Source: Candidatus Methylomirabilota bacterium (GTDB taxonomy: Bacteria; Methylomirabilota; Methylomirabilia; Rokubacteriales; CSP1-6). From it: a stretch of 64,000 bases of DNA. The translations under genes were made by a program, and so were the position numbers. Location: positions 85,160 through 149,159 of the forward strand of contig DASRHC010000004.1 of assembly GCA_035650715.1 (NCBI GenBank), read 5' to 3'. Below the pieces are notes generated by a model. That model did not search any database and was not told the origin of the DNA. It saw only the letters and a list, made by a program, of their open reading frames with translations. Positions 1 to 54,045 of this stretch are shown piece after piece (the stretch's first letter is position 1; each line of letters starts with the position of its first letter).

Positions 1-3000
1 AGCGTGCCCTCCACCAGCAGGAACGACTCGTTCACCAGCGAGAGCCGGTGCTGGTGGAAGAGCGCGGGCCGGACGATCACGTTGATCAGCCCGGTCTCGT
101 CCTCCAGGTTGAGGAAGACGAACCCCTTGGCGGTGCCCGGCCGCTGGCGCACCACCACCGCGCCCGCCACCTTCACCCACGCCCCGTGACGGAAGGCGGC
201 GAGATCCGCCGCCCGCGACACGCCCATGCGCAGGAGCCGGCCCCGCCGGAACGCCATCGGGTGCGGCCCGAGGGTGAGGCCGGTGCCGTCGTAGTCGGCG
301 AGCAGCCGCTCCTCCGCGCTCATGGGCCGGAGCGGTGAGGCCTCGCGGGGGGCGGGCAGATCCTCGTAGAGATCGCCCGCGGGCCGCCCCGCCCGCTCCG
401 CCGCCCAGAGGGCCGCCCGGCGCTCCGGCTCCAGGCTGCCCAGCGCCCCCACCCGCGCCAGCTGCGCCACCTCGTCGCGCCGGAGCCGGCCGCGCCGGAC
501 CACGTCCTCGACCGAGTCGAACGGCCGCCGCGCGCGCTCGGCCTCGAGCCGTCGGCCCGCGTCCTCGCGCAAGCCGCGCACGTAGCGCAGCCCCAGGCGC
601 ACCGCCCCCCCGGTCGATCCCGGTGAACCGCCCGCGTCTTCGCCCACATCTTCGATGGTGCACAGCCAGCCCGAGAAGTTGACGTCGGGGGGACGGATGA
701 CCTGCCCGTGTCGGCCCGCGTCGTTGACGATGGTGGCGGGATCGTAGAAGCCCATCGGCTGGTTGTTCAGCAGCGCGGCGTAGAAGGCGGCCGGGTGGTG
801 CGTCTTGAGATAGGCGCTCCCGTAGGCCAGCAGGGCGAAGCTGGCCGCGTGCGACTCCGGGAAGCCGTAGAGCGCGAACGCGGTGATGGAGGCGATGACG
901 GCCTCGGCGGCGGCGCCTGCGATGCCCTTCCGGGCCATGCCCGCGCGAAGCTTCACCTCCACCTCCTTCATGGCGCGCTCCGAACGCTTGAACCCGAAGG
1001 CGCGGCGCAGCTCCTCGGCCTCGCCGCCGGTGAAGCCGGCGGCGGCCATCGCCATGCGCAGCAGCTGCTCCTGGAAGAGCGGGACGCCGAGCGTGCGGCG
1101 CAGGATGGGCTCGAGGTCCGGATGCGGCACCGTGATGGCCTCGCGGCCCGCGCGGCGGCGCAGATAGGGATGCACCATGTCGCCCACGATGGGGCCGGGC
1201 CGGATGATCGCCACCTGCACCACCAGGTCGTAGAAGCGCTCCGGGCGCAGGCGCGGCAGCGTCGCCATCTGGGCGCGGCTCTCGACCTGGAACACCCCGA
1301 TGGTGTCGGCCTCCTGCAGCATGCGGTAGACCGCGGGGTCCTGGGGCAGATGGGCCAGGTCCACCGCCCCGCCCCGGCGGCGGATCATCTCGAGCGCGTC
1401 CTGCAGCAGCGACATCATGCCGAGCCCGAGCAGGTCGACCTTCACGATGCCGAGCGCGGCGCAGTCGTCCTTGTCCCACTGCACCACGCTGCGCCCGGGC
1501 ATGGTGGCGGGCTCGAGCGGCACCACCCCGTCGAGGCGCCCCTGGGCGATCACCATGCCGCCCGAGTGCTGGCCGAGATGCCGCGGCAGGTCCTGGATCG
1601 CGGTCCACAGGCGCGCGAAGTCCTGCATGCGGGGCTCGGCCGGATCGCATCCCGCCTCCCCGAGGTGCGCGAGCAGGCTGTCGCCGGGGTCGGTGTACTC
1701 CCACGTGCTCACCAGCTGCGAGAGCCGCTCGATCACGTCCGGGGGCAGGCCGAGGACCTTGCCGACCTCGCGGGCGGCGCTGCGCCCGCGATAGGTGATG
1801 ACGTTGGCGGTCATGGCCGCGCCCAGGCGGCCGTAGCGCTCATAGACGTACTGGATCACCTGCTCGCGGCGGTCGCCGCTCGGCAGGTCGAGATCGATGT
1901 CGGGCCACTCCCCGCGCTCCTCGGAGAGGAAGCGCTCGAAGAGCAGCTCCATCCCCACCGGGTCCACCGCGGTGAGGCCGAGCGCGTAGCAGACCGCGCT
2001 GTTGGCCGCGGAGCCGCGTCCCTGCACCAGCACCCCGTGCGCGCCGCAGTACTGCACGATGTCCCACACGATGAGGAAGTAGCCCGCGAGATCCAGGCGA
2101 CCGATCACGTTCAGCTCGTGCTCGATCTGCCGGCGCGCCCTCTCCGCGAGGGGCCCCGAGCCGTACCGCCTCCGCGCCCCCGCCTCGGCGAGCGTTCGCA
2201 GGAAGCCGATGGGCGTCTCCCCGCGCGGCAGCGGATAGTCCGGAAAGCGATAGCCCAGGTCCTTGAGGGTGAAGCCGAGGCGCATCGCGAGCTCGCCGGT
2301 GTTGGCCACCGCTTCCGGGCAATCCGCGAAGAGCCGCTCCATGGCCGGCCCGCTCTGCATGAAGTGCTCGCTGTTGCGCGCGAGCCGCCGGCCCGCCTGC
2401 TCGAGCGTCACGTGCTCGCGGATGCACGTGAGCACGTCCAGCAGCGGCCGGTCGCGCCGCGCGACGAGGCGCGGCTCGTTGGTGGCCAGCGGGGCGAGGC
2501 GAAGCCGGGCCGCCTCCCCCCGCAGCCAGTCGTTGCGCGCCTCCTCCGGGCGGCTCAGGTGCCGCTGCAGCTCCGCGAAGACGTTGGAGCGGCCGTAGAT
2601 CGAGACCAGCCGCTCGAGGAGCCGCCGGCCCCCGGGCGCGCCCTCGCGCGCGAGCGCGGCGGCGACCGGTCCGCGGCCGCCCCCGGTGAGGCACACGAGC
2701 CCGCCCGCGAACTCCGCGAGCTCGTCCAGCGTGGCCGCGCCCGCGCCCTTGGCCGCGCGCATCTTGATGCGGGTGAGCAGCCGGCAGAGGTTCTGGTAGC
2801 CCTCGCGATCCTCGACCAGCAGCGGCAGCCGGCTGCCGTCGGTGAGCGTGACCTCCGCGCCCACCCGCGCGGAGATGCCGAGCCGGGTGCACGCGCGATA
2901 GAGCCGCGGGGCGCCGTAGACGCCGTCGGCGTCCAGCAGCGCGATGGCGGGCTGCCCGAGCGCGGCGGCCCGCTCGGCCAGCGCCTCCGGCAGGACCGCC

Positions 3001-3047
3001 GCCTCCAGGAAGCTGAAGGCGCTCCGGGCGTGCAGCTCGACGAACAC
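1..3047 (-). CDS. dnaE2: Error-prone DNA polymerase III alpha subunit DnaE2 (ImuC), partial. The C-terminal part lies beyond the window start.
   Basis: The minus strand in the imuB frame reads AVFVELHARSAFSFLEAAVLPEALAERAAALGQPAIALLDADGVYGAPRLY, the DnaE2 PHP-domain N-terminus. Mid-gene translation gives the DnaE-like VIAQGRLDGVVPLEPATM. No in-window stop, so it is absent from the ORF track. The start is probably GTG near 3047, just after the imuB stop. The plus-strand ORF 708..3092 is its antisense artefact. Confidence 0.8.
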   Translation of the reverse strand, partial: MFVELHARSAFSFLEAAVLPEALAERAAALGQPAIALLDADGVYGAPRLYRACTRLGISARVGAEVTLTDGSRLPLLVEDREGYQNLCRLLTRIKMRAAKGAGAATLDELAEFAGGLVCLTGGGRGPVAAALAREGAPGGRRLLERLVSIYGRSNVFAELQRHLSRPEEARNDWLRGEAARLRLAPLATNEPRLVARRDRPLLDVLTCIREHVTLEQAGRRLARNSEHFMQSGPAMERLFADCPEAVANTGELAMRLGFTLKDLGYRFPDYPLPRGETPIGFLRTLAEAGARRRYGSGPLAERARRQIEHELNVIGRLDLAGYFLIVWDIVQYCGAHGVLVQGRGSAANSAVCYALGLTAVDPVGMELLFERFLSEERGEWPDIDLDLPSGDRREQVIQYVYERYGRLGAAMTANVITYRGRSAAREVGKVLGLPPDVIERLSQLVSTWEYTDPGDSLLAHLGEAGCDPAEPRMQDFARLWTAIQDLPRHLGQHSGGMVIAQGRLDGVVPLEPATMPGRSVVQWDKDDCAALGIVKVDLLGLGMMSLLQDALEMIRRRGGAVDLAHLPQDPAVYRMLQEADTIGVFQVESRAQMATLPRLRPERFYDLVVQVAIIRPGPIVGDMVHPYLRRRAGREAITVPHPDLEPILRRTLGVPLFQEQLLRMAMAAAGFTGGEAEELRRAFGFKRSERAMKEVEVKLRAGMARKGIAGAAAEAVIASITAFALYGFPESHAASFALLAYGSAYLKTHHPAAFYAALLNNQPMGFYDPATIVNDAGRHGQVIRPPDVNFSGWLCTIEDVGEDAGGSPGSTGGAVRLGLRYVRGLREDAGRRLEAERARRPFDSVEDVVRRGRLRRDEVAQLARVGALGSLEPERRAALWAAERAGRPAGDLYEDLPAPREASPLRPMSAEERLLADYDGTGLTLGPHPMAFRRGRLLRMGVSRAADLAAFRHGAWVKVAGAVVVRQRPGTAKGFVFLNLEDETGLINVIVRPALFHQHRLSLVNESFLLVEGT

Positions 3048-3119
3048 GGCGTCACCGCCCGGGCGGTGCCGACAGCCGGGACGACGGCGTGAAGCCGCGG
3101 AACGCGACGTGGGTGGACA

Positions 3120-4433
3120 TCAGTCATAGACGCCGGCCAGGAGCCAGGCGGAGCCGTCGTGGGCCAGGCGGCAGAGCGTGCCGTCGGCCAGCTCCACGTC
3201 CCACTCGTCCTGCAGCCACGGATGAGGGGTCCACCACTCGCCCGACACCCGCCACGGGCCGACCCCGGCCACGATGCGCCCCCCGAGGCGACTCGATCGC
3301 AGCGCGACCGGCCGCCCCGATGCGACGGTGACCGCGGCGGGCGCGGGCGGGCGGAAGCGGCGGAGGGCGAGGACCGGGCCCCTCACCCTGCCCTCTCCTC
3401 GGTGGGGAGAGGTCGAGCCCCGGCGGGGAGGAGCAGATGTCCCTCGGCGGAGAGAGAGCGGGGCATAGGCGCCCAGGCCCACCGCGTCGGGGCGATGGCT
3501 GTCGAGCAGCGTCGGGGCGCCGACGCGGTCCGGGCCCACCAGCGCCACCAGGCGGTTCATGGTGGCCTCGAGGAAGCGCGGGCTCGGACGCGAAGGATCC
3601 GTGAACGACTCCTGCGCGGCGGCCGCACGGGTGGGGCGCACGCGCAGGACGATCGCGCGCACGATGCCGCGCGGCGGCCGGCCCTCGAGGGCCAGGCGCA
3701 GCAAGGCGGTCACCGCGCCGGACTCGGTCAGCGGCACCGCGGGCGTGAGCGCGCCCTCGTGCGCGCGTCCGTCGGCGAGCCGGCACGTCCACTCGAAGCC
3801 GTCGGCGGCCAGGCCGCGCGCGGCCAGTCTGGCGCAGAGGCGCTCGGCCATCGCCCCGAGCCGCTCCATCAGCGGCCCGAGCGCCTCGAGGCCCCACTCG
3901 CACTCGACCGACTCCTCGAAGACCGGCCCCGGCCGCCAGGCGCTGAGAGGCCGTGGGTCGTCGCCGCGGGCCAGCCGCTGGGCCCGGACGCCCTCGGCGC
4001 CGGCCCGCTCGAAGAGCCCCGTGGTCGGCAGCGCCGCCAGCTCGCCCATGGTCCGCAGGCCCCACCGCTCCAAGCGGGTGGCGAGCTCCTCCGATATCGG
4101 CAGCAGCGAGAGCGGTGCCGGGGCCAGCGCGGCCGCGTCGCCATCGGGCTCGACGATGGCGACCCCGGCACCGAGACGGGCCGCCACCAGCGCGGCGAGA
4201 CGGCTGCCGGCAACGCCCACCCGGATCGAGAAGCCCTCCGCGAGGGCGGCGGCGCGGAGCCGCTCGGCGAGGGTGGGCTCGTCGCCGAAGAGGCCCTCGA
4301 GTCCCGCCGCATCGAGATAGACGCAAGTGCTCGCTTCTTCGACACGAGGAGAATGTGCGAGCGCGACCTGGAGCAGGGCCCCCGGCGGGGGGAGCGACGG
4401 AGCCTCGGGGAGCAGGCAGCCGATGCGGCTCAC
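3120..4433 (-). CDS. imuB: ImuB, the Y-family-polymerase-like protein of the imuA-imuB-dnaE2 mutagenesis cassette
   Basis: 437 aa. N-terminus MSRIGCLLPEAP resembles Y-family MRRIACLWLPDFPL. Y-family-like VYLDAAGLEGLFGDEPTLAERLRAAALAEGFSIRVGVAGSRLAALVAARLG. C-terminal ImuB-like SGEWW motif. Sits immediately upstream of dnaE2 in the same frame. Confidence 0.7.
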   Translation of the reverse strand: MSRIGCLLPEAPSLPPPGALLQVALAHSPRVEEASTCVYLDAAGLEGLFGDEPTLAERLRAAALAEGFSIRVGVAGSRLAALVAARLGAGVAIVEPDGDAAALAPAPLSLLPISEELATRLERWGLRTMGELAALPTTGLFERAGAEGVRAQRLARGDDPRPLSAWRPGPVFEESVECEWGLEALGPLMERLGAMAERLCARLAARGLAADGFEWTCRLADGRAHEGALTPAVPLTESGAVTALLRLALEGRPPRGIVRAIVLRVRPTRAAAAQESFTDPSRPSPRFLEATMNRLVALVGPDRVGAPTLLDSHRPDAVGLGAYAPLSLRRGTSAPPRRGSTSPHRGEGRVRGPVLALRRFRPPAPAAVTVASGRPVALRSSRLGGRIVAGVGPWRVSGEWWTPHPWLQDEWDVELADGTLCRLAHDGSAWLLAGVYD

Positions 4434-5110
4434 GCGCCCCTCCGGTCACCGGCGCACCCGGCGCCGGAAGGCACGTCCTGAAGACTCCACTCGACCGCCC
4501 AGTGCCCCTCCCCCTGCCCTCTCCCCGGAGAGGAGAGGGTGGAGATGCGGACGCGGGTGATGGCGATCTCCGAGCGAAGACCGGCCAGCCGGGTGAGCGG
4601 TCGCAGGCCCATCCACTGCGGGCCGAGCCGTCGCGTGGTCAGCACCAGGGAGGCGGGGCTCCCCTCGCGGTGCCGGGCCACGCGGAGGATCAGGATCGTG
4701 TCGGTGTCCTCCACCGCCCGCTGCAGGCGGATGCACGTGGAGGCGGGCACCGGCCCCAGATCATCGAGGTCCAGCACGACCAGGGCAAAGCCCGGGCAGC
4801 GGGCCAGCAGGTCGGCGGCGCCGAGGGCCACCCGGAGGCGGCCGCCGCAGCGCACCCAGAGCAGCGCCGAGAGATCGGCGCCGGCCGCCGCAGCGGAATC
4901 GGGATCGAGCGAGTCGGTGGCGTCCACGAAGGCCACCTGTCCACCGGCCGTCGTGATGCGGGCGATGAGGGCCAGGAGCAGGCTGCTGGCTCCGGAGGAG
5001 CGGGAACCGACGACCTCGCTGAGCCGGCCCGGCGGAAACAGCCCGAGCAGGCCGTCGATCCCCTCGCGCTCCCACCCTGGCGGGGGTGAGGACTCGATCG
5101 GGATGCCCAT
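4430..5110 (-). CDS. imuA: ImuA, a RecA-fold SulA/ImuA-family protein
   Basis: 226 aa with a RecA-like core GRLSEVVGSRSSGASSLLLALIARITTAGGQVAFVDATDSLDP. Its stop abuts the imuB start. The 3' end contains a REP-like GC-rich palindrome sequence. Confidence 0.6.
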   Translation of the reverse strand: MGIPIESSPPPGWEREGIDGLLGLFPPGRLSEVVGSRSSGASSLLLALIARITTAGGQVAFVDATDSLDPDSAAAAGADLSALLWVRCGGRLRVALGAADLLARCPGFALVVLDLDDLGPVPASTCIRLQRAVEDTDTILILRVARHREGSPASLVLTTRRLGPQWMGLRPLTRLAGLRSEIAITRVRISTLSSPGRGQGEGHWAVEWSLQDVPSGAGCAGDRRGA

Positions 5111-5198
5111 CGCCTCGATTACACGTCACCTGTTAAGTATATTTCAACAACAAGATACAGGGGCTCAGGGGGGACACCGGCCCCAGATAGAGGGCCGA
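5111..5198 (-). promoter_or_regulatory. Candidate promoter/operator (possible SOS box) upstream of imuA
   Basis: A ~45-nt AT-rich island in a 70% GC background. Read toward imuA it is TTGAAA-N18-TGTAAT-N7-ATG with GAGG. It carries the imperfect palindrome TGTTAAG-TATAT-TTCAACA. imuA-imuB-dnaE2 cassettes are typically LexA-regulated. Confidence 0.3.
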
Positions 5199-10798: not shown

Positions 10799-10861
10799 GG
10801 GGTCAGGTCTTACATTCCGACATTTGACGCGTCGCGATGTCGGAATGTAAGACCTGACCCC
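10799..10861. repeat. Inverted-repeat element copy 1. Perfect 25-bp arms GGGGTCAGGTCTTACATTCCGACAT / ATGTCGGAATGTAAGACCTGACCCC with a 13-nt loop.
   Basis: Seen directly. Starts 3 nt after the CaiB-family stop and ends 13 nt before the next gene start. Confidence 0.9.
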
Positions 10862-13138: not shown

Positions 13139-13606
13139 TCACCGGCCCAGCGAGGCCTGCTGCACGCGGTTGCGGAAGCCGATGGGGTCGCGCACGCGGC
13201 GGAAGACCTCGCGGGCCCCGCCGGTGCCGGTCACGATCAAATCGCCGAAGCCCAGCATGCGGCCGATCAGCCCTTGCTGGATGCCGATGCTCTCCACCTT
13301 GGAGAGGAGCAGCTCGGTGGTGTAGCGCGAGATGAGCCCCACCTTGAGGATGAGGCGGCTGGTGGTCACCGCGAACTCGGAGGTCATCAGCTCCACGTAG
13401 TGCACCAGCGCCCAGGCGGCCCCGATCACCACGACGCCCGCGCCGATCAGCCAGATCCAGGGCGGATCCTGCACCGGCCGCAGCACGACGGCGAGCGCGA
13501 TCCCCGCGATGATCACCAGGGCCGGCCGCAGGAAGAGGATCCAGTGCAGCCGCGTCTTGTACACGACGCGCTCCCCCTCCAGCAGGTGCCGCTCCACGTA
13601 CCCCAC
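13139..13606 (-). CDS. Membrane protein with bacterial PH domain (DUF304 / YdbS-like)
   Basis: 155 aa with two TM helices followed by a PH-like region. Confidence 0.7.
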   Translation of the reverse strand: MGYVERHLLEGERVVYKTRLHWILFLRPALVIIAGIALAVVLRPVQDPPWIWLIGAGVVVIGAAWALVHYVELMTSEFAVTTSRLILKVGLISRYTTELLLSKVESIGIQQGLIGRMLGFGDLIVTGTGGAREVFRRVRDPIGFRNRVQQASLGR

Positions 13607-13622
13607 GCGCCCAGCCTAGCGC

Positions 13623-13706
13623 GGGGTCAGGTCTTACATTCCTACATTTTCGGCGGCGGGGCGGCGGGGGGCGGAAGAGAAATGTCGGAATGTAAGACCT
13701 GACCCC
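13623..13706. repeat. Inverted-repeat element copy 2. 25-bp arms (one mismatch in the left arm) with a 34-nt GC-rich loop.
   Basis: Seen directly. Overlaps the 3' end and stop codon of the gamma-CA-like gene and lies 17 nt upstream of the PH-domain gene start. Confidence 0.9.
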
Positions 13707-14208
13707 GGTAGTCGCGGTGCCAGAGGTCGAGGTACTCGGTGGCGTTGCGGGCGATGTCGTCGAGCTCCTCCTGGCTCATCTTGCGCACCGGCTTGGCCGG
13801 GACGCCCATGACCAGCCAGCCCGACGGCACCACCTTGCCCGGCGGGACCACCGCGCCCGCCCCCACCTGCGCCCACTCCTCGATCACCGCGCCGGTGAGC
13901 ACCACCGCCCCGATGCCGATGCGCACGTTGTCCATCACCCGGCAGGCGTGCACCACCGCCCGGTGGCCGATCGTCACGTTGGCCCCCACGATGCACGGGA
14001 ACTGGGGCGTCACGTGCAGCACCGAGTTGTCCTGGACGTTGGAGTTGCGACCGAGCACGACGTAGTTGTCCTGGTCGCCCCGCAGCACGGTGAAGGGCCA
14101 CACGCTCGCGCCCGCCTCGATCGTCACGTCGCCGATGACCTGCGCGGCCGGATCCACGTAGGCCTCCGGGTGCACCCGCGGCGTCCGCCCCGGCACCGAG
14201 CGGATCAC
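13642..14208 (-). CDS. Gamma-carbonic-anhydrase-like hexapeptide-repeat protein (PaaY/CaiE family)
   Basis: GTG start overlaps the crotonase stop (GTGA). Reads MIRSVPGRTPRVHPEAYVDPAAQVIGDVTIEAGASVWPFTVLRGD... The C-terminal tail [20 protein letters not shown] and the stop are encoded by the inverted-repeat element. Confidence 0.8.
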   Translation of the reverse strand: MIRSVPGRTPRVHPEAYVDPAAQVIGDVTIEAGASVWPFTVLRGDQDNYVVLGRNSNVQDNSVLHVTPQFPCIVGANVTIGHRAVVHACRVMDNVRIGIGAVVLTGAVIEEWAQVGAGAVVPPGKVVPSGWLVMGVPAKPVRKMSQEELDDIARNATEYLDLWHRDYRGQVLHSDISLPPPAAPPPKM

Positions 14209-14987
14209 CGGCCGCTCCAGCGCGCGGGGCGCTTGTCGAGAAAGGCCCGCACGCCCTCGTGGAAGTCGGCGCTGGTGTAGGTCCACGCGATCAGATCCTC
14301 GTCCTCGGGGAGCGCCCGGCTGCGCGCCAGGCGCCGGATGGCCTCCTTGGTGACCGCCAGCGTGATCGGCGCGTGCTCGGCGATCTGCCGGGCCAGCGCG
14401 GCCACCCGCGCCGCGATGTCCTCCGGCGGCACGATCTCGTGGACGTAGCCGGCCGCGCGCGCCTCCTCGGCCCCGAGCAGACGCGCGGTGAAGAGCAGCT
14501 CGGTGACCCGCGAGGGCCCGAACACGTCCACCAGGCGCGCGTAGGCCGCCATCGACAGGCAGTTGCCGAGCGTGCGGGCGATGGGCGCGCCGAACCGGGC
14601 GTCGGGCGTGGCCACGCGGATGTCGCACGCGGTCGCGATCCGGAAGCCGCCGCCCACCGCGACGCCCTCGATCTGGGCGATCACCGGCTTGTTCACCGAC
14701 TCGAGCCGCGCGATGCGGCGATCGCCGTCGCGCTCGTAGGCGATGCCGTCCTCGGCGCGCTCGAACACCTGGAACTGGCTGATGTCCGTGCCGGCCACGA
14801 ACGCCTTGCCGCCCGCCCCGCGGAGCACCAGCACCCGGACGGAGTCGTCGGCGTCGACCTCCTCGCACACCTGGTAGAGCCGGTCGTACATCGCCCACGT
14901 CATGGCGTTGCGCGCGGCGGGCCGGTTGAAGGTGAGCGTCATCACCGGCCCCTCGCGGGTGACCAGCGTCTCGTCTTGCGTCGGCAC
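14205..14987 (-). CDS. Enoyl-CoA hydratase/isomerase family protein (crotonase)
   Basis: GTG start with a GGGAGG RBS 8 nt upstream. Reads MPTQDETLVTREGPVMTLTFNRP, with AFVAGTDISQF and VAVGGG. Confidence 0.85.
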   Translation of the reverse strand: MPTQDETLVTREGPVMTLTFNRPAARNAMTWAMYDRLYQVCEEVDADDSVRVLVLRGAGGKAFVAGTDISQFQVFERAEDGIAYERDGDRRIARLESVNKPVIAQIEGVAVGGGFRIATACDIRVATPDARFGAPIARTLGNCLSMAAYARLVDVFGPSRVTELLFTARLLGAEEARAAGYVHEIVPPEDIAARVAALARQIAEHAPITLAVTKEAIRRLARSRALPEDEDLIAWTYTSADFHEGVRAFLDKRPARWSGR

Positions 14988-15087
14988 GGCGTGCGCCTCC
15001 CGTTGCTCGTGATGGTGCCGCGTGGGTCGCCGCATCGTATCACCTTCCCGCGCACGGCCGCCCCGACCCTCGCGTTAGCATGGACGG

Positions 15088-46601: not shown

Positions 46602-46688
46602 GGGGTCAGGTCTTACATTCCGACATTTTTCCCGCTGGAGGCGTCACCACGCCACCCACGAAAATGTCGGAATGTAAGACCTGACCCC
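46602..46688. repeat. Inverted-repeat element copy 3. Perfect 25-bp arms with a 37-nt loop.
   Basis: Seen directly. Lies between convergent genes, 2 nt after the CoA-ligase stop and 4 nt before the M48 peptidase stop. Confidence 0.9.
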
Positions 46689-50117: not shown

Positions 50118-50149
50118 CCGATGCTCCTAGCGGGAATGTGCACTCGGCA

Positions 50150-50345
50150 CCGCGACGTGGGCGGGGTGGAGGGCGAGCGGGGCGGGGCGTGGGGGGGCCG
50201 GGTGACCCGTTCCCGCCCGGGGCGGACCGCCCGACATCCGCCCAGGTTGGGAACTCCTCCGAAGGTGGCCGCGGAGGACACGGTCGTGGTCAGAGGCCCC
50301 CCACGCCCCGCACCGCCCGCCCCCCACCCCGCCGGACCTCGCCAC
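50150..50345. repeat. Large imperfect inverted repeat: a ~42-bp G-tract-rich arm and its C-rich complement, separated by a ~95-nt loop
   Basis: Arm 1 is GTGGGCGGGGTGGAGGGCGAGCGGGGCGGGGCGTGGGGGGGCC. The reverse complement of arm 2 is CCGGCGGGGTGGGGGGCGGGCGGTGCGGGGCGTGGGGGGCC. Intergenic, between the two ACAD genes. Confidence 0.7.
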
Positions 50346-50349
50346 TGCG

Positions 50350-51531
50350 CTACAGCCCGAGCGTCGCCTTGGCGATGATGTTTCTCTGGATCTCGTTGGA
50401 GCCGGCGTAGATCGTCGCCTTGCGGAGGTTGCAGTATCTCGGCGCGAGGCGCGCGGTGAAGTGGTCGAAGTCCATGGCGTCCACGGGGCGGAAGGCCTGG
50501 GCGAGCGGGCCGGCGGCCTGCATCATCAGCTCGGTGATCGCCTGCTGGATCTCGGTGCCCTTGATCTTCAGCATCGACACGTCGGCGCCGGGTGGCCGGC
50601 CGCTGCGGCGCATCTGATCGAGGAAGCGCAGGTTGGTGATCTCGAGCGCCATCAGCTCGACCTCGACCCGGGTGAGACGGTCGCGGAAGCGCGGATCCTC
50701 GATGAGCGGGCGGCCGTCCTTCATCTGCTCCGCGGCCAGCTCCTTCAGCTTCTGCAGCTCGCGCTTGGAGGCGCCGATGCGGCCGGTGCCCATGCGCTCG
50801 TAGCCCAGCAGGTACTTGGCCACCGTCCAGCCCTTGCCCTCCTCGTGCACGAGGTTCTCGACCGGCACCTTCACGTCGTCGAAGAACACCTCGTTGACCT
50901 CCCTGCTGCCGTCCATCAGGACGATCGGCCTCACCGTGATGCCGGGCGTCTTCATGTCGATGAGCAGGAACGAGATGCCGTCCTGCCGCTTGCTCGTGTT
51001 GGGATCGGTGCGGACGAGGCAGAAGATCCAGTCCGCGTAGTGCGCGAGGGTGGTCCAGATCTTCTGGCCGGTGACCACGTAGTGGCCGTTCTCGCGCACC
51101 GCCCGCGTCTTGAGCGAGGCCAGGTCCGAGCCCGAGCCCGGCTCCGAGTAGCCCTGGCACCAGAAGTCGTCGCCGTTGTAGATGCGCGGCAGGAACCGCT
51201 TCTTCTGCTCCTCGGTGCCGAAGCGCAGCAGCACCGGCGCGCACATGCGCACCCCGAAGGGCACGATCATGGGGGTGGCCGCGTAGCCGCACTCCTCCTC
51301 GAAGATGTAGCGCTGCACCACGTTCCAGTCCGTCCCGCCCCACTCCTTCGGCCAGTCGGGGGCGACCCATCCCTTCCGGGCCAGGATCTTGTGCCAGCGC
51401 AGGAGCTCTTCCTTGCTCAGCTCCTGGTAGCTCTCCATCTTCTGGCGCAGATCCGCGGGCAGGTTCGTGCGGAGCCACCCGCGCACCTCGTCGCGGAACG
51501 CCAGCTCCTCGGGGGAGTAGTTCAGATCCAT
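50350..51531 (-). CDS. Acyl-CoA dehydrogenase
   Basis: 393 aa: MDLNYSPEELAFRDEVRGWL, and the C-terminal YAGSNEIQRNIIA. Confidence 0.9.
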   Translation of the reverse strand: MDLNYSPEELAFRDEVRGWLRTNLPADLRQKMESYQELSKEELLRWHKILARKGWVAPDWPKEWGGTDWNVVQRYIFEEECGYAATPMIVPFGVRMCAPVLLRFGTEEQKKRFLPRIYNGDDFWCQGYSEPGSGSDLASLKTRAVRENGHYVVTGQKIWTTLAHYADWIFCLVRTDPNTSKRQDGISFLLIDMKTPGITVRPIVLMDGSREVNEVFFDDVKVPVENLVHEEGKGWTVAKYLLGYERMGTGRIGASKRELQKLKELAAEQMKDGRPLIEDPRFRDRLTRVEVELMALEITNLRFLDQMRRSGRPPGADVSMLKIKGTEIQQAITELMMQAAGPLAQAFRPVDAMDFDHFTARLAPRYCNLRKATIYAGSNEIQRNIIAKATLGL

Positions 51532-53193: not shown

Positions 53194-53279
53194 GGGGTCA
53201 GGTCTTACATTCCGACATTGCCCAAACGCGAGACCCGACGCCATCCGCAATCAATGTCGGAATGTAAGACCTGACCCCA
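53194..53279. repeat. Inverted-repeat element copy 4. Perfect 25-bp arms with a 35-nt loop.
   Basis: Seen directly. Immediately 3' of the alpha/beta hydrolase gene stop. Confidence 0.9.
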
Positions 53280-53280
53280 T

Positions 53281-54045
53281 CTAGAGGACGCCGGTGGCGG
53301 TGAGGAATCGGGCGATCACCTGCTGGACCTCGGCGCGGTGGCTGCGGTTCGGGAAGTGGGGGCCGCCCTGCACCACGTGCAGGCGGGCGCCGGGGATGGT
53401 CTCGGCCACCCGACGCGACATGGCGACGGTGGGGTAGCGGTCGTCGGAGCCCGCGATGATCTGTACCGGGCAGCGGATGCGGCGGCAGTCGGCGAGCCAC
53501 TCGTGGCGGCTGTAGGTCTCGTCCAGCAGCGCCAGCAGCGAGGCGACCGAGTGGCGATGGAGCATCGCCACCATCTCCGCGTGACGCTCGGGCCGCGCCT
53601 TGAGCCGGGCCAGCGCCTCCTCCCCCATGCGCAGGCGCACGTTGGCGTCGAAGTAGTCGGCGAAGCGCCCCGTCTCCACCAAAGGTCGGTGGCGGGCCCA
53701 CCACGCCTTGTCCTCGGCGCTGGGCTCGTAGGGCGGGCCGCTGATCGAGATCACCGCCCGCGCCCGCTCGGGGGCGTGGACCGCGATCCACAGCGACAGC
53801 GCCGCGCCCATGGAAGCGCCGCCCCAGACCGCCTCCCGCACCCCGAGCACGTCGAGCCACGCCAGCAGGTCCTCGGCCTTCCGCGCATAGGTGTAGTCGG
53901 CCGCCCGCTCGAACCGCGTGGAGAGCCCGTGGCCGCGCGTGTCCGGGAACAGCGCGCGCACGCGGCCGACGAAGGGCTCGAGGTCGGCCACCATCATCGA
54001 CGAGTCCTCCACCGAGCCGCCGTGGATCCACACCATGACCGGCAC
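53281..54045 (-). CDS. Alpha/beta hydrolase fold protein
   Basis: 254 aa: VWIHGG, and GASMGAA. Confidence 0.8.
   Translation of the reverse strand: MPVMVWIHGGSVEDSSMMVADLEPFVGRVRALFPDTRGHGLSTRFERAADYTYARKAEDLLAWLDVLGVREAVWGGASMGAALSLWIAVHAPERARAVISISGPPYEPSAEDKAWWARHRPLVETGRFADYFDANVRLRMGEEALARLKARPERHAEMVAMLHRHSVASLLALLDETYSRHEWLADCRRIRCPVQIIAGSDDRYPTVAMSRRVAETIPGARLHVVQGGPHFPNRSHRAEVQQVIARFLTATGVL

What the first reader, a model, noticed from the sequence alone, without database searches (positions are those of the whole stretch)
13623..13706. An inverted-repeat element provides the last ~19 codons and the stop codon of the gamma-carbonic-anhydrase-like gene
The gamma-CA/PaaY-like ORF on the minus strand reads through the right arm of element copy 2. 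The arm translates as GQVLHSDI, then SLPPPAAPPPKM, and the ORF ends at a TAG inside the element. The same GQVLHSDI or MSECKT peptides appear at the ends of other artefactual ORFs that run into copies of this repeat. This suggests an insertion into the 3' end of the gene that created a chimeric C-terminus. The element also sits 17 nt upstream of the next gene in the same operon.
Basis: seen in the sequence. Interest (0 to 1): 0.55.

Follow-up and report, generated by a model that had tools for sequence, protein, structure and literature searches.

The report
Mobile hairpin repeat extends a gene's end
A small mobile hairpin repeat (a REPIN-type element, common in Rokubacteria/Methylomirabilota genomes) has fused to the end of a gamma-carbonic-anhydrase-like gene and now supplies its last 20 codons and its stop codon; this is a real but fairly ordinary by-product of repeats that sit right after stop codons.

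Summary
An 84-nt element (13623-13706) with 25-28 bp arms and a 34-nt loop lies inside the 3' end of the minus-strand gamma-CA-like gene (14208..13642). It encodes the tail [20 protein letters not shown] and the TAG stop. That TAG is the only arm mismatch among the 8 arms in the window.

Homology to other gamma-CA proteins and to structure 1V3W ends at about residue 168-170. Equally close orthologues end at ...HRDYR* with no element. Others carry the element 1-11 nt after an intact stop.

The fused allele occurs in at least 12 independent metagenome contigs, so it is not an assembly error. Its core is under purifying selection (dN/dS about 0.06). The tail changes frame and length between strains, so it looks like a tolerated appendage.

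The element is REPIN-like. It has many dispersed copies in Methylomirabilota MAGs, no target duplications and unrelated loops. In three MAGs the same arms flank a REP-associated tyrosine transposase gene.

Across 120 gene-adjacent arm ends, 89 lie within 10 nt after a stop codon and 22 have the ORF running into the element. This case is therefore one of a recurrent class: a new member of a known kind, of modest interest.

The parts
13623..13706 (.). REPIN-like inverted-repeat element, copy 2 of 4 in the window (the inverted repeat extends one more base pair, to 13622-13707)
   Evidence: The RNA hairpin folds at -63.7 kcal/mol, z -4.9 against shuffles.
13682..13706 (-). Gene-proximal arm, identical to the family consensus. 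It is read as (R)GQVLHSDI. The R168 codon CGG (13707..13705) takes its last two bases from the element.
13648..13681 (-). Variable loop, GC-rich, read as SLPPPAAPPPK.
   Evidence: Loops of different copies are unrelated. Loops of the fused clade are homologous but full of indels.
13623..13647 (-). Gene-distal arm. It carries the only arm mismatch in the window (T at 13643), which creates the stop TAG at 13644..13642. The consensus arm would give KMSECKT-TGA.
   Evidence: P0002 and P0003.
13642..14208 (-). Gamma-carbonic-anhydrase-like (hexapeptide, LbH) gene of 188 aa. Residues 1-168 are the conserved core; residues 169-188 are element-encoded.
   Evidence: Pfam Hexapep 6e-17. PDB 1V3W 2e-44, aligned over residues 3-170. 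dN/dS 0.06-0.19 against orthologues.
13607..13622 (-). What remains of the intercistronic spacer (GCGCTAGGCTGGGCGC), including the TAGGCT motif that is conserved in orthologues with and without the element.
13139..13606 (-). Downstream gene of the same operon: membrane protein with a bacterial PH domain (bPH_2), GTG start.
   Evidence: Pfam bPH_2 9.5e-13. The start MGYVERHLL is conserved in orthologous loci.
14205..15035 (-). Upstream enoyl-CoA hydratase gene. Its TGA stop overlaps the GTG start of the gamma-CA gene.
   Evidence: ECH_1 is assigned to the orthologous gene in L002.
10799..10861 (.). Copy 1 (13-nt loop). It begins 2 nt after the TAG of a + strand gene and ends 13 nt before the GTG of the HpcH/HpaI aldolase gene.
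   Evidence: The aldolase is identified from the orthologous gene in L002.
46602..46688 (.). Copy 3, between convergent genes. The acyl-CoA synthetase-like gene's TAG is 1-2 nt from one end; the TGA of the peptidase-like gene is 4 nt from the other end. The gene names come from reading the translations; these two were not run against Pfam.
53194..53278 (.). Copy 4. It begins 2 nt after the TAG of the minus-strand gene 53281..54045 (hydrolase-like, not run against Pfam). The + strand ORF that runs into its other end is antisense to a real gene and is an artefact.

Best explanation
The element is one copy of a REPIN-type repeat family of Methylomirabilota (Rokubacteria). Each copy has two identical 25-28 nt arms in inverted orientation around a short, freely varying loop. 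The family is most likely mobilised in single-stranded form by a REP-associated tyrosine (HUH/Y1) transposase.

These elements lie, with great regularity, a few nucleotides downstream of stop codons. At this locus a copy occupies the roughly 17-nt spacer between the gamma-CA-like gene and the next gene of the operon, and in the window's lineage the gene's own stop codon is gone. Translation, if it proceeds as the sequence reads, therefore continues through the proximal arm (GQVLHSDI) and the loop (SLPPPAAPPPK). It ends at a TAG created by a point mutation in the distal arm.

The 20-residue tail is a tolerated appendage rather than a functional domain. The enzyme core remains under strong purifying selection.

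Shown:
- the anatomy of the element and the ORF;
- the element origin of the tail;
- empty, filled-unfused and filled-fused orthologous sites;
- the family distribution;
- RAYT genes flanked by the same arms in related genomes.

Inferred:
- mobilisation by the RAYT;
- that the fusion arose by a small deletion after an insertion downstream of the stop (about 60:40 over direct insertion into the last codon);
- that the tail is translated and is neutral or slightly deleterious.
For: Element origin of the tail
- The same arms occur 8 times in the window against 0.01 expected. All three reading frames of the arms reappear as ORF ends at other copies.
- Homologues split into tail-less forms and forms with GQVLHSDIS... 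tails.
- The 1V3W alignment ends at residue 170.

Orthologous sites
- Empty: L001, L017-L019, L021, L023, L024, L026, L027, L040.
- Element 1-11 nt after an intact stop: L025, L028, L059, L060, L061, L080.
- Fused exactly as in the window: L008-L016, L020.
- Fused but decayed or shortened: L002, L032, L036.
- Fused in another frame after a 3-nt deletion of the stop: L038, L046, L065, which are sister to the unfused L031 and L054.

Selection
- The core has dN/dS of 0.06 at dS of 0.32-0.36 between fused alleles, with no internal stops.
- The tail changes frame and length between strains: KM*, KMSECKT*, GENVGM*.
- The natural C-terminus of this protein family is already variable: YR, YRG, YRGR, YRDLYGRRQT, YRGNPSGW....

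Family
- More than 94 genomic stretches match the arm, nearly all in Methylomirabilota/Rokubacteria MAGs.
- There are no target-site duplications. The modal loop is 34-36 nt, with unrelated sequence between copies.
- A Y1_Tnp protein passes the NCBIfam equivalog REP_Tyr_transpos (91.3 bits against a cut-off of 80). It sits between two inverted arms in L167 and L173 and next to one arm in L156, where the contig ends. It aligns weakly to E. coli TnpA-REP, 4ER8, over the HUH and Y motifs.

Position rule
- Of 120 arm ends with a convincing incoming ORF, 89 have the stop codon starting 2-10 nt before the element (mode: stop + 3 nt). In 22 the ORF runs into the element.
Against: - No RAYT gene lies in the 64-kb window, so its presence in this genome is unproven.
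- A single arm is not itself a palindrome and has no fixed GTAG or CGTC tag, so the element departs from textbook REPs.
- The arms at the orthologous locus are far better conserved than neutral sites next door. They show 0-2 differences in 50 positions where dS of 0.36 predicts about 14. A purely neutral-junk view does not explain this.
- ORFs that read into elements favour one frame, 14 of 22. That hints at some selection on what the tail looks like.
- There is no expression or proteomic evidence that the tail is made.
- The order of events at the junction cannot be reconstructed unambiguously.
Confidence: 0.85

Rival explanations
1. Direct hit. The element transposed straight into the last sense codon or the stop codon of the gene, with no later deletion. 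This is the insertion into the 3' end that the first reader proposed.
For: - Removing 86 nt (13622-13707) from the window gives ...GAC TAC CGC TAG GCT GGG CGC GTG. This closely resembles the real empty site of L026...TAC CGC TGA GCTGAGGCC GTG.
- Removing 84 nt from L009 gives TAC CGG CGT TAG in frame.
- The CTAG next to the window's element is palindromic. Seen from the + strand, the element has the usual TAG + 3 nt + GGGG configuration.
Against: - The same arithmetic fails for L020, whose fused junction is identical.
- 98 of 120 gene-adjacent arm ends lie after the stop, not in the ORF.
- L080 and L107 have the window's right junction (CCCC-GCGC-TAGGCT) with an intact CGC TAG AC before the element. 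A 7-nt deletion is therefore enough to give the window's state.
- L038, L046 and L065 document stop loss by microdeletion after insertion.
Confidence: 0.35
2. Functional coupling. The hairpin is kept immediately at or over stop codons because it regulates the end of translation or the fate of the mRNA. Possible routes are slowing of termination, protection of the upstream message, or setting the ratio of the two cistrons. On this view the fused tail is a selected variant rather than an accident.
For: - Placement is tight: 89 of 120 arm ends lie within 10 nt of a stop, with a mode at stop + 3 nt.
- TAG makes up 71% of stops next to elements against 43% elsewhere, Fisher p = 1e-6.
- The arms are conserved at orthologous loci far beyond the neutral expectation.
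- The fused allele has persisted over dS of about 0.36.
- Read-in ORFs show a frame bias.
- From my own recollection, not checked here: E. coli REPs within about 15 nt of a stop codon have been reported to lower translation of the upstream gene through ribosome stalling and tmRNA.
Against: - Tail sequence, length and frame are not conserved among fused alleles.
- Closely related strains do without the element altogether.
- The stop-creating TAG mutation is also inherited by alleles in which it is out of frame (L008, L014). It therefore looks inherited rather than selected.
- Tight placement could equally reflect a transposase target preference, or the very short intergenic spaces of these genomes. 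Elements also abut start codons and SD sequences on their other side.
Confidence: 0.15
3. Artefact. The extension results from an assembly or sequencing error, and the true stop lies upstream of the element.
For: None was found. Repeats with long perfect hairpins are in general prone to assembly and polishing errors.
Against: - The identical junction TAC CGG GGT CAG occurs in at least 12 independent contigs from different metagenomes (L008-L016, L020, L032, L036).
- Protein clusters P0001-P0005 and P0007, called in other projects, carry the same kind of tail.
- There is no stop in frame between residue 1 and the element.
Confidence: 0.02
4. Native element. The hairpin is an operon-specific regulatory structure, such as an intrinsic terminator or attenuator, and is not mobile DNA.
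For: It is a very stable RNA hairpin (-63.7 kcal/mol) lying between two cistrons.
Against: - The same arms occur at unrelated loci in the window and in more than 94 stretches of other genomes.
- They flank a transposase gene.
- No U-tract follows the hairpin on either strand.
- Rfam finds nothing at gathering threshold.
- Close orthologues lack the hairpin.
Confidence: 0.03

Closest known systems
REPINs (REP doublets forming hairpins) and their RAYT transposases, as described in Pseudomonas fluorescens and E. coli (Bertels & Rainey 2011, PMC3116915; PMC3337134)
   Same: - Two inverted repeat units separated by a short, less conserved spacer, forming a long hairpin.
- Tens to hundreds of dispersed, mostly extragenic copies.
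- No target duplication.
- A Y1/HUH transposase gene of the RAYT family flanked by the same repeat in inverted orientation, at the same chromosomal position in several related genomes.
- Subfamilies whose two arms have changed together, for example TTGAAATAC with GTATTTCAA in L038.
   Different: - The single arm is not an imperfect palindrome of its own.
- There is no fixed GTAG tag.
- The loops share no sequence at all between copies, whereas the arms are identical.
- The host phylum is Methylomirabilota; I found no paper describing REPINs or RAYTs there.
TIR families associated with tyrosine transposases ('TIRYT'/'TIRtron'), and REPs near or inside genes, in Di Nocera et al. 2013 (PMC3733652)
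   Same: According to that paper:
- some Y1 transposase genes are flanked by inverted repeats that are not GTAG or CGTC REPs, and these repeats can form self-complementary, closely spaced pairs;
- REPs lie mostly less than 20 bp from the 3' ends of ORFs, between unidirectional or convergent genes;
[quoted passage not shown]

All of this matches what is seen here.
   Different: That survey did not cover this phylum or this repeat. The transposase here passes the RAYT equivalog model. I did not place it on a phylogeny relative to the TIRYT group.
Rickettsia palindromic elements (RPEs) inserted in frame in protein-coding genes (cited in PMC3733652)
   Same: A palindromic mobile repeat becomes part of an ORF that stays functional, adding a peptide segment of 20-30 residues.
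   Different: RPEs are typically internal, in-frame insertions that are read through. Here the element is at the very end and supplies the stop codon. No RAYT link is claimed for RPE-1.
E. coli REP sequences close to stop codons that lower translation of the upstream gene (recalled from the literature; I could not retrieve the paper)
   Same: A stable REP hairpin a few nucleotides after a stop codon. This is the dominant arrangement of the family studied here.
   Different: Not tested here. In the window's copy the stop codon lies inside the hairpin rather than before it.

Membership tests
REPIN / REP-RAYT system | Two repeat units in inverted orientation, separated by a short spacer and able to form one long hairpin | tested here: met
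   - Arms of 25-28 nt, 96-100% complementary, in all 4 window copies.
- 69 further pairs in other genomes, modal loop 34-36 nt.
- Hairpin of -63.7 kcal/mol, z -4.9.
REPIN / REP-RAYT system | Many dispersed copies per genome, predominantly extragenic | tested here: met
   - 4 copies in 64 kb.
- 98 of 120 gene-adjacent ends lie outside the ORF.
REPIN / REP-RAYT system | A RAYT (Y1/HUH transposase) gene flanked by the same repeat units in inverted orientation | tested here: met
   - Met in related genomes only: L167 (arms at 4275+ and 5258-), L173 (1430+ and 2419-), and L156 (one arm, then the contig ends).
- Pfam Y1_Tnp 1e-11; NCBIfam REP_Tyr_transpos 91.3 bits against a cut-off of 80.
- No RAYT in the window itself. 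The rest of this genome is not available.
REPIN / REP-RAYT system | Each single REP unit is itself a short imperfect palindrome | tested here: not met
   By inspection of the arm GGGGTCAGGTCTTACATTCCGACAT, the best internal pairing is 3 bp (GTC with GAC). The hairpin exists only between the two arms.
REPIN / REP-RAYT system | A conserved GTAG (or CGTC) tetranucleotide at one end of the unit (super-families of PMC3733652) | tested here: not met
   - There is no fixed tag.
- TAG occurs at variable spacing before the arm in 62 of 98 ends where a gene stops there, but in only 13 of 63 ends without an incoming ORF.
- It is therefore mostly the neighbouring gene's stop codon.
REPIN / REP-RAYT system | RAYT present as a single copy and inherited vertically | tested here: inconclusive
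   The three RAYT loci have the same flanking genes and junctions (flanks ...CTTCTAGC(T/C)C and ...GAAGCA(G/A)TAG), which fits vertical inheritance. Copy number per genome could not be counted from 8-kb pieces.
REPIN / REP-RAYT system | The transposase binds and cleaves the single-stranded hairpin | not testable with these tools
   This needs biochemistry.
MITE derived from a DDE-transposase insertion sequence | Terminal inverted repeats plus a target-site duplication and a conserved internal sequence | tested here: not met
   - No 2-4 nt duplications in 69 elements, and one 5-nt match (shuffled mean 0.4).
- Internal sequences are unrelated between copies.
- The only transposase found between arms is a Y1 enzyme.
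Intrinsic (rho-independent) terminator | A GC-rich hairpin directly followed by a run of U | tested here: not met
   After the hairpin the mRNA strand reads GCGCUAGGCUGGGCGC and the other strand reads GGUAGUCGCGG. Neither has a U run.
Gamma-class carbonic anhydrase-like / hexapeptide (LbH) proteins | Left-handed beta-helix hexapeptide repeats followed by a C-terminal helix, about 170 residues in all | tested here: met
   - Pfam Hexapep 6e-17.
- 1V3W 2e-44 over residues 3-170.
- Metal-ligand histidines and enzymatic activity were not examined.

The most novel reading that the evidence does not exclude
This REPIN family is not merely tolerated next to genes. It is targeted to, or selected at, the first few nucleotides after stop codons, with a preference for TAG, and it acts there as a hairpin coupled to translation termination. 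On this reading the arms are held constant at each locus by selection, and recurrent fusions in one preferred frame (...GQVLHSDIS...) give a family of proteins sharing a repeat-encoded C-terminal tag with a function such as controlling turnover.
Probability: 0.1. Interest if true: 0.6.

Novelty: new member of a known kind. Interest (0 to 1): 0.3.

Why it matters
For annotation. ORFs in Methylomirabilota genomes that end in GQVLHSDI..., GVRSYIPT..., ...MSECKT or ...NVGM carry repeat-derived tails, or are artefacts. They should be recognised as such. About one in six gene-adjacent copies has an ORF running into it.

For biology. The locus offers a clean natural series: empty site, element after the stop, and element fused in two different frames. 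It shows how a REPIN-type repeat can rewrite a gene's C-terminus without harming the gene. It also documents a REPIN/RAYT-like system in a poorly studied soil phylum.

The strict placement just after stop codons, and the arm conservation at orthologous sites, are worth a dedicated whole-genome analysis. They bear on the open question of what REPINs do for their hosts.

Tried and rejected
1. Displaced native stop. I first thought the TAG at 13618..13616 was the gene's displaced native stop, because deleting 86 nt puts it in frame. Orthologues show that TAGGCT is a conserved spacer motif, present downstream of the real stop in empty sites. The in-frame result may therefore be coincidence. I keep it only as part of the direct-hit rival.

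2. TAG as part of the element. I considered whether TAG belongs to the element, like the GTAG tag of E. coli REPs. I rejected this because its spacing varies and it is largely absent where no gene ends.

3. Known RNA families and tRNAs. Rfam at gathering threshold and ARAGORN found nothing in the window.

4. A RAYT in the window. tblastn found none.

5. Adaptive reading of the stop-creating TCG>TAG arm mutation. This is weakened because alleles with the loop in another frame (L008, L014) carry the same change out of frame.

6. First ORF filter. My first filter (GC3 over the whole open stretch) missed the window's own case. I redid it with GC3 over the last 100 codons.

7. Flawed comparisons in my scripts. 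The L107 leaf of the tree was extracted in the wrong register. The downstream-identity column compares ungapped sequences that are out of register. Neither is used.

8. Literature. A search for the E. coli paper on REPs near termination codons did not retrieve it. That comparison rests on my memory.

9. Tail-based protein search. I did not search the large protein database with the tail peptide, because a motif of about 10 residues cannot reach significance there.

Full report
**1. The observation**

The stretch 13623-13706 reads GGGGTCAGGTCTTACATTCCtACAT, then a 34-nt GC-rich loop, then ATGTCGGAATGTAAGACCTGACCCC. The repeat finder reports 28-nt arms, 96% complementary, at 13622-13649 and 13680-13707. 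It also reports three more such pairs at 10799-10861, 46602-46688 and 53194-53278. The 18-nt arm core occurs 8 times in the window where shuffles give 0.01. Seven of the eight 25-nt arms are identical. The only deviation is a T at 13643.

On the minus strand a hexapeptide/gamma-carbonic-anhydrase-like ORF starts at GTG 14208. This start overlaps the TGA of the upstream enoyl-CoA hydratase gene as GTGA. The ORF runs without any stop into the element...[30 protein letters not shown], with the stop at 13644..13642. The stop is exactly the deviant arm position. With the consensus TCG the frame would continue to KMSECKT-TGA.

The next gene (bPH_2 domain) starts at GTG 13606, 16 nt beyond the element.

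**2. Is the tail foreign to the protein?**

Yes. The best solved relative (1V3W, 173 aa, E = 2e-44) aligns to residues 3-170 and ends there.

Among the 120 best database relatives (82-94% identical), almost all end at ...DYR, DYRG, DYRGR, DYRGRG or other short variable ends. Six carry a tail read from the element in the GQVL... frame, with different loops and stops:
- P0001: ...[19 protein letters not shown]
- P0002 and P0003: ...PGKMSECKT
- P0004: ...SGSDPGS
- P0005: a diverged arm, GQVLNYDI...KKYESNT
- P0007: ...GENVGM

P0008 and P0014 carry a short tail read from the element in another frame, SGVRS and SGVSS.

I then fetched 80 orthologous loci from metagenomes, plus the loci encoding P0006 and P0004, and read the DNA after the DYR codons. 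Loci as close to the window as the other fused alleles are (about 92% nt, 95% aa) are empty. L001, L018, L019 and L021 read TAC CGG TAG AGAGGTAGGCTCACCGC GTG, that is stop, 17-nt spacer, then the start of the bPH gene. L017, L023, L024, L026, L027 and L040 are also empty.

Other orthologues have the element but keep their stop before it:
- L025: TGA TCT|GGGG
- L028: TAA C|GGGG
- L080: TAG AC|GGGG
- L059, L060 and L061 as well.

L008-L016 and L020 have the window's junction TAC CGG GGT CAG. L032, L036 and L002 have it too (TAT in L032 and L002), with a partly deleted or shortened element. Because the same junction is seen in at least 12 independent contigs, it is not an assembly or sequencing error.

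**3. Is the fused gene alive, and is the tail conserved?**

Between the window and other fused alleles the 168-codon core has dN of 0.022-0.028 and dS of 0.28-0.36. This gives dN/dS of 0.06-0.10, with no internal stops. The gene has stayed under strong purifying selection for a long time after the fusion.

The tail has not. One-base indels in the GC-rich loop switch the frame between strains, so the distal arm is read as KM*, KMSECKT* or GENVGM*. The TAG-creating change is also present in alleles where it is out of frame (L008, L014). It therefore looks inherited rather than selected.

The natural C-terminus of this protein family is itself variable in length. That probably explains why an extra 15-25 residues are tolerated.

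**4. What the element is**

They came from about 16 MAGs, nearly all labelled Methylomirabilota or Rokubacteria. A few SMAG bins carry unrelated names, but their contigs hold orthologues of the same genes.

In 69 non-redundant elements there is no target-site duplication. The loop beyond the 25-nt arm is mostly 34-36 nt, with a minority at 10-14 nt. It starts with TT(T)C and ends with GAA(A). Otherwise loops share no sequence between copies.

In L167 the two arms lie 938 nt apart and enclose a gene. Its product matches Pfam Y1_Tnp (1e-11) and passes the NCBIfam equivalog for REP-associated tyrosine transposases (91.3 bits, cut-off 80). It aligns weakly to E. coli TnpA-REP (4ER8) across the HUH and tyrosine motifs. 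The same gene, at the same chromosomal junctions, is found between arms in L173 and next to an arm in L156, where the contig ends. The window has no such gene.

Many dispersed hairpin doublets together with a RAYT gene flanked by the same units is the REPIN/RAYT arrangement (PMC3116915, PMC3337134).

Two textbook REP features are not met. A single arm is not a palindrome of its own, and there is no fixed GTAG or CGTC tag. In this respect the family resembles the inverted repeats associated with tyrosine transposases described by Di Nocera et al. (PMC3733652). I found no paper linking REPINs or RAYTs to this phylum.

**5.

I took every arm end in the window and the genome loci (185). I asked whether a convincing ORF (at least 100 codons, GC3 of at least 0.88 over its last 100 codons) runs towards it. 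This held for 120 ends.
- In 98 the stop lies before the element.
- In 89 of those the stop starts 2-10 nt before the first G. The mode is stop + 3 nt (30 cases), and in 11 cases the G of TAG is the element's first G.
- In 22 (18%) the ORF reads into the element and ends in the loop or the distal arm.

The proximal arm is open in all three frames. The distal arm has a stop in two of the three.

The other three copies in the window follow the rule, at 1-4 nt after a stop. On sides where no gene ends, the element often abuts a start codon or SD sequence. These elements therefore fill very short intergenic spaces.

Stops next to elements are TAG in 63 of 89 cases, against 214 of 502 elsewhere in the same loci (Fisher p = 1e-6).

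Proximity of REPs to 3' ends, and occasional overlap with coding ends, is already described for other bacteria (PMC3733652).

**6. How the fusion arose**

The spacer between the two genes has been hit repeatedly. Loops of the fused clade are homologous to each other (56-85% identity). Loops of L025, L028, L059, L060 and L080 are as unlike the window's as random GC-rich sequence (about 50%), and their junctions differ. In a neighbour-joining tree of the gene, empty, filled and fused states are interleaved. This points to repeated gain, loss or recombination.

Several loci show later changes at or near the element:
- L022 looks like a deletion footprint.
- L074 and L078 keep only one arm.
- L016 has different DNA downstream of the element.

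One fusion is transparent. L038, L046 and L065 read TAC CGA TCT GGG GTC AGG TCT TGA (tail SGVRS*). Their sister loci L031 and L054 read TAC CGC TGA TCT GGGG. A 3-nt deletion therefore removed the stop after the element was already there.

For the window's junction, a 7-9 nt deletion from an L080-like or L025-like state would do the same. L080 and L107 share the window's right junction CCCC-GCGC-TAGGCT. A direct insertion just before a stop in a 9-nt-spacer ancestor (as in L026) cannot be excluded. I favour the deletion route at about 60:40.

**7. Mechanism and what remains odd**

Most likely, a RAYT-mobilised hairpin element sits in the intercistronic spacer, the stop was lost, and ribosomes read into the hairpin. 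The RNA hairpin is strong (-63.7 kcal/mol) and has no U-tract, so it is not a classical terminator. It may still stabilise or process the message, but nothing here tests that.

Three observations are not explained by pure neutrality:
- **Arm conservation.** At the orthologous locus the arms differ at 0-2 of 50 positions, where dS of 0.36 predicts about 14 (my calculation).
- **TAG bias.** TAG is over-represented among stops next to elements.
- **Frame bias.** Among ORFs that read in, the frame GG-GGT-CAG accounts for 14 of 22.

These keep alive, at low probability, a reading in which the family is functionally coupled to translation termination.

**8. Verdict**

The thing itself is a member of a known kind of element in a phylum where it has not been described. 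The chimeric C-terminus is one instance of a recurrent side effect of its placement. Interest is modest.

Noticed in passing
window 10799-10861, 46602-46688, 53194-53278; loci L088-L181: Elements lie with great regularity just after stop codons. 89 of 120 gene-adjacent arm ends have the stop starting 2-10 nt before the element, with a mode of stop + 3 nt. TAG is enriched among these stops (71% against 43% background, p = 1e-6). Whether this is a target preference or selective retention is not resolved.
   Followed up: partly
window 13623-13706 compared with L008-L015 and L020 (orthologous copies): The arms of the orthologous copies are 96-100% identical although the adjacent gene has dS of 0.28-0.36. 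The loops diverge quickly through indels. The arms are therefore maintained by something other than recent copying.
   Followed up: partly
L038, L046, L065 (about 2990-3100 in each): This is a second, independent fusion of the same gene to an element of a variant subfamily. The arms are TTGAAATAC and GTATTTCAA, changed on both sides. The fusion is in another frame (tail SGVRS*, as in P0008) and was produced by a 3-nt deletion that removed TGA.
   Followed up: yes
L167 4301-5166 (minus strand): The RAYT gene enclosed by the arms appears split. The Y1 domain ORF (4384..5166) runs on in a compositionally odd frame, and a separate overlapping ORF (4301..4642) has weak helix-turn-helix matches. This could be a frameshift (pseudogene or assembly error) or a two-domain protein that was read wrongly.
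   Followed up: no
L016 about 880-1000; L022, L074, L078 just after the gamma-CA gene: Several loci show rearrangement and decay at the element. L016 has unrelated DNA downstream of the element, suggesting recombination between copies. L022 looks like a deletion footprint (TGCCCCCCGTCTTAGGCT). L074 and L078 retain only one arm.
   Followed up: partly
window 50125-50350: An intergenic region holds a 37-nt G-rich arm and a C-rich arm (92% complementary, 100 nt apart). The 226-nt minus-strand RNA folds at -161 kcal/mol (z -5.2). There is no Rfam match, and the arm is absent from all fetched loci.
   Followed up: partly
L088-L181 record titles: Several SMAG bins that carry many copies of the element, along with orthologues of Rokubacteria genes, are titled Nitrosotalea sp., Limnocylindria, Deferrimicrobiaceae or Acidoferrum. 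The names probably do not reflect these contigs, through mislabelling or contaminated bins.
   Followed up: no
L002-L007, L032 (downstream of the gamma-CA gene): In the P0004 lineage the bPH_2 gene is missing altogether. The decayed element is followed directly by the convergent short-chain dehydrogenase gene, so the operon has been shortened at the site of the element.
   Followed up: no
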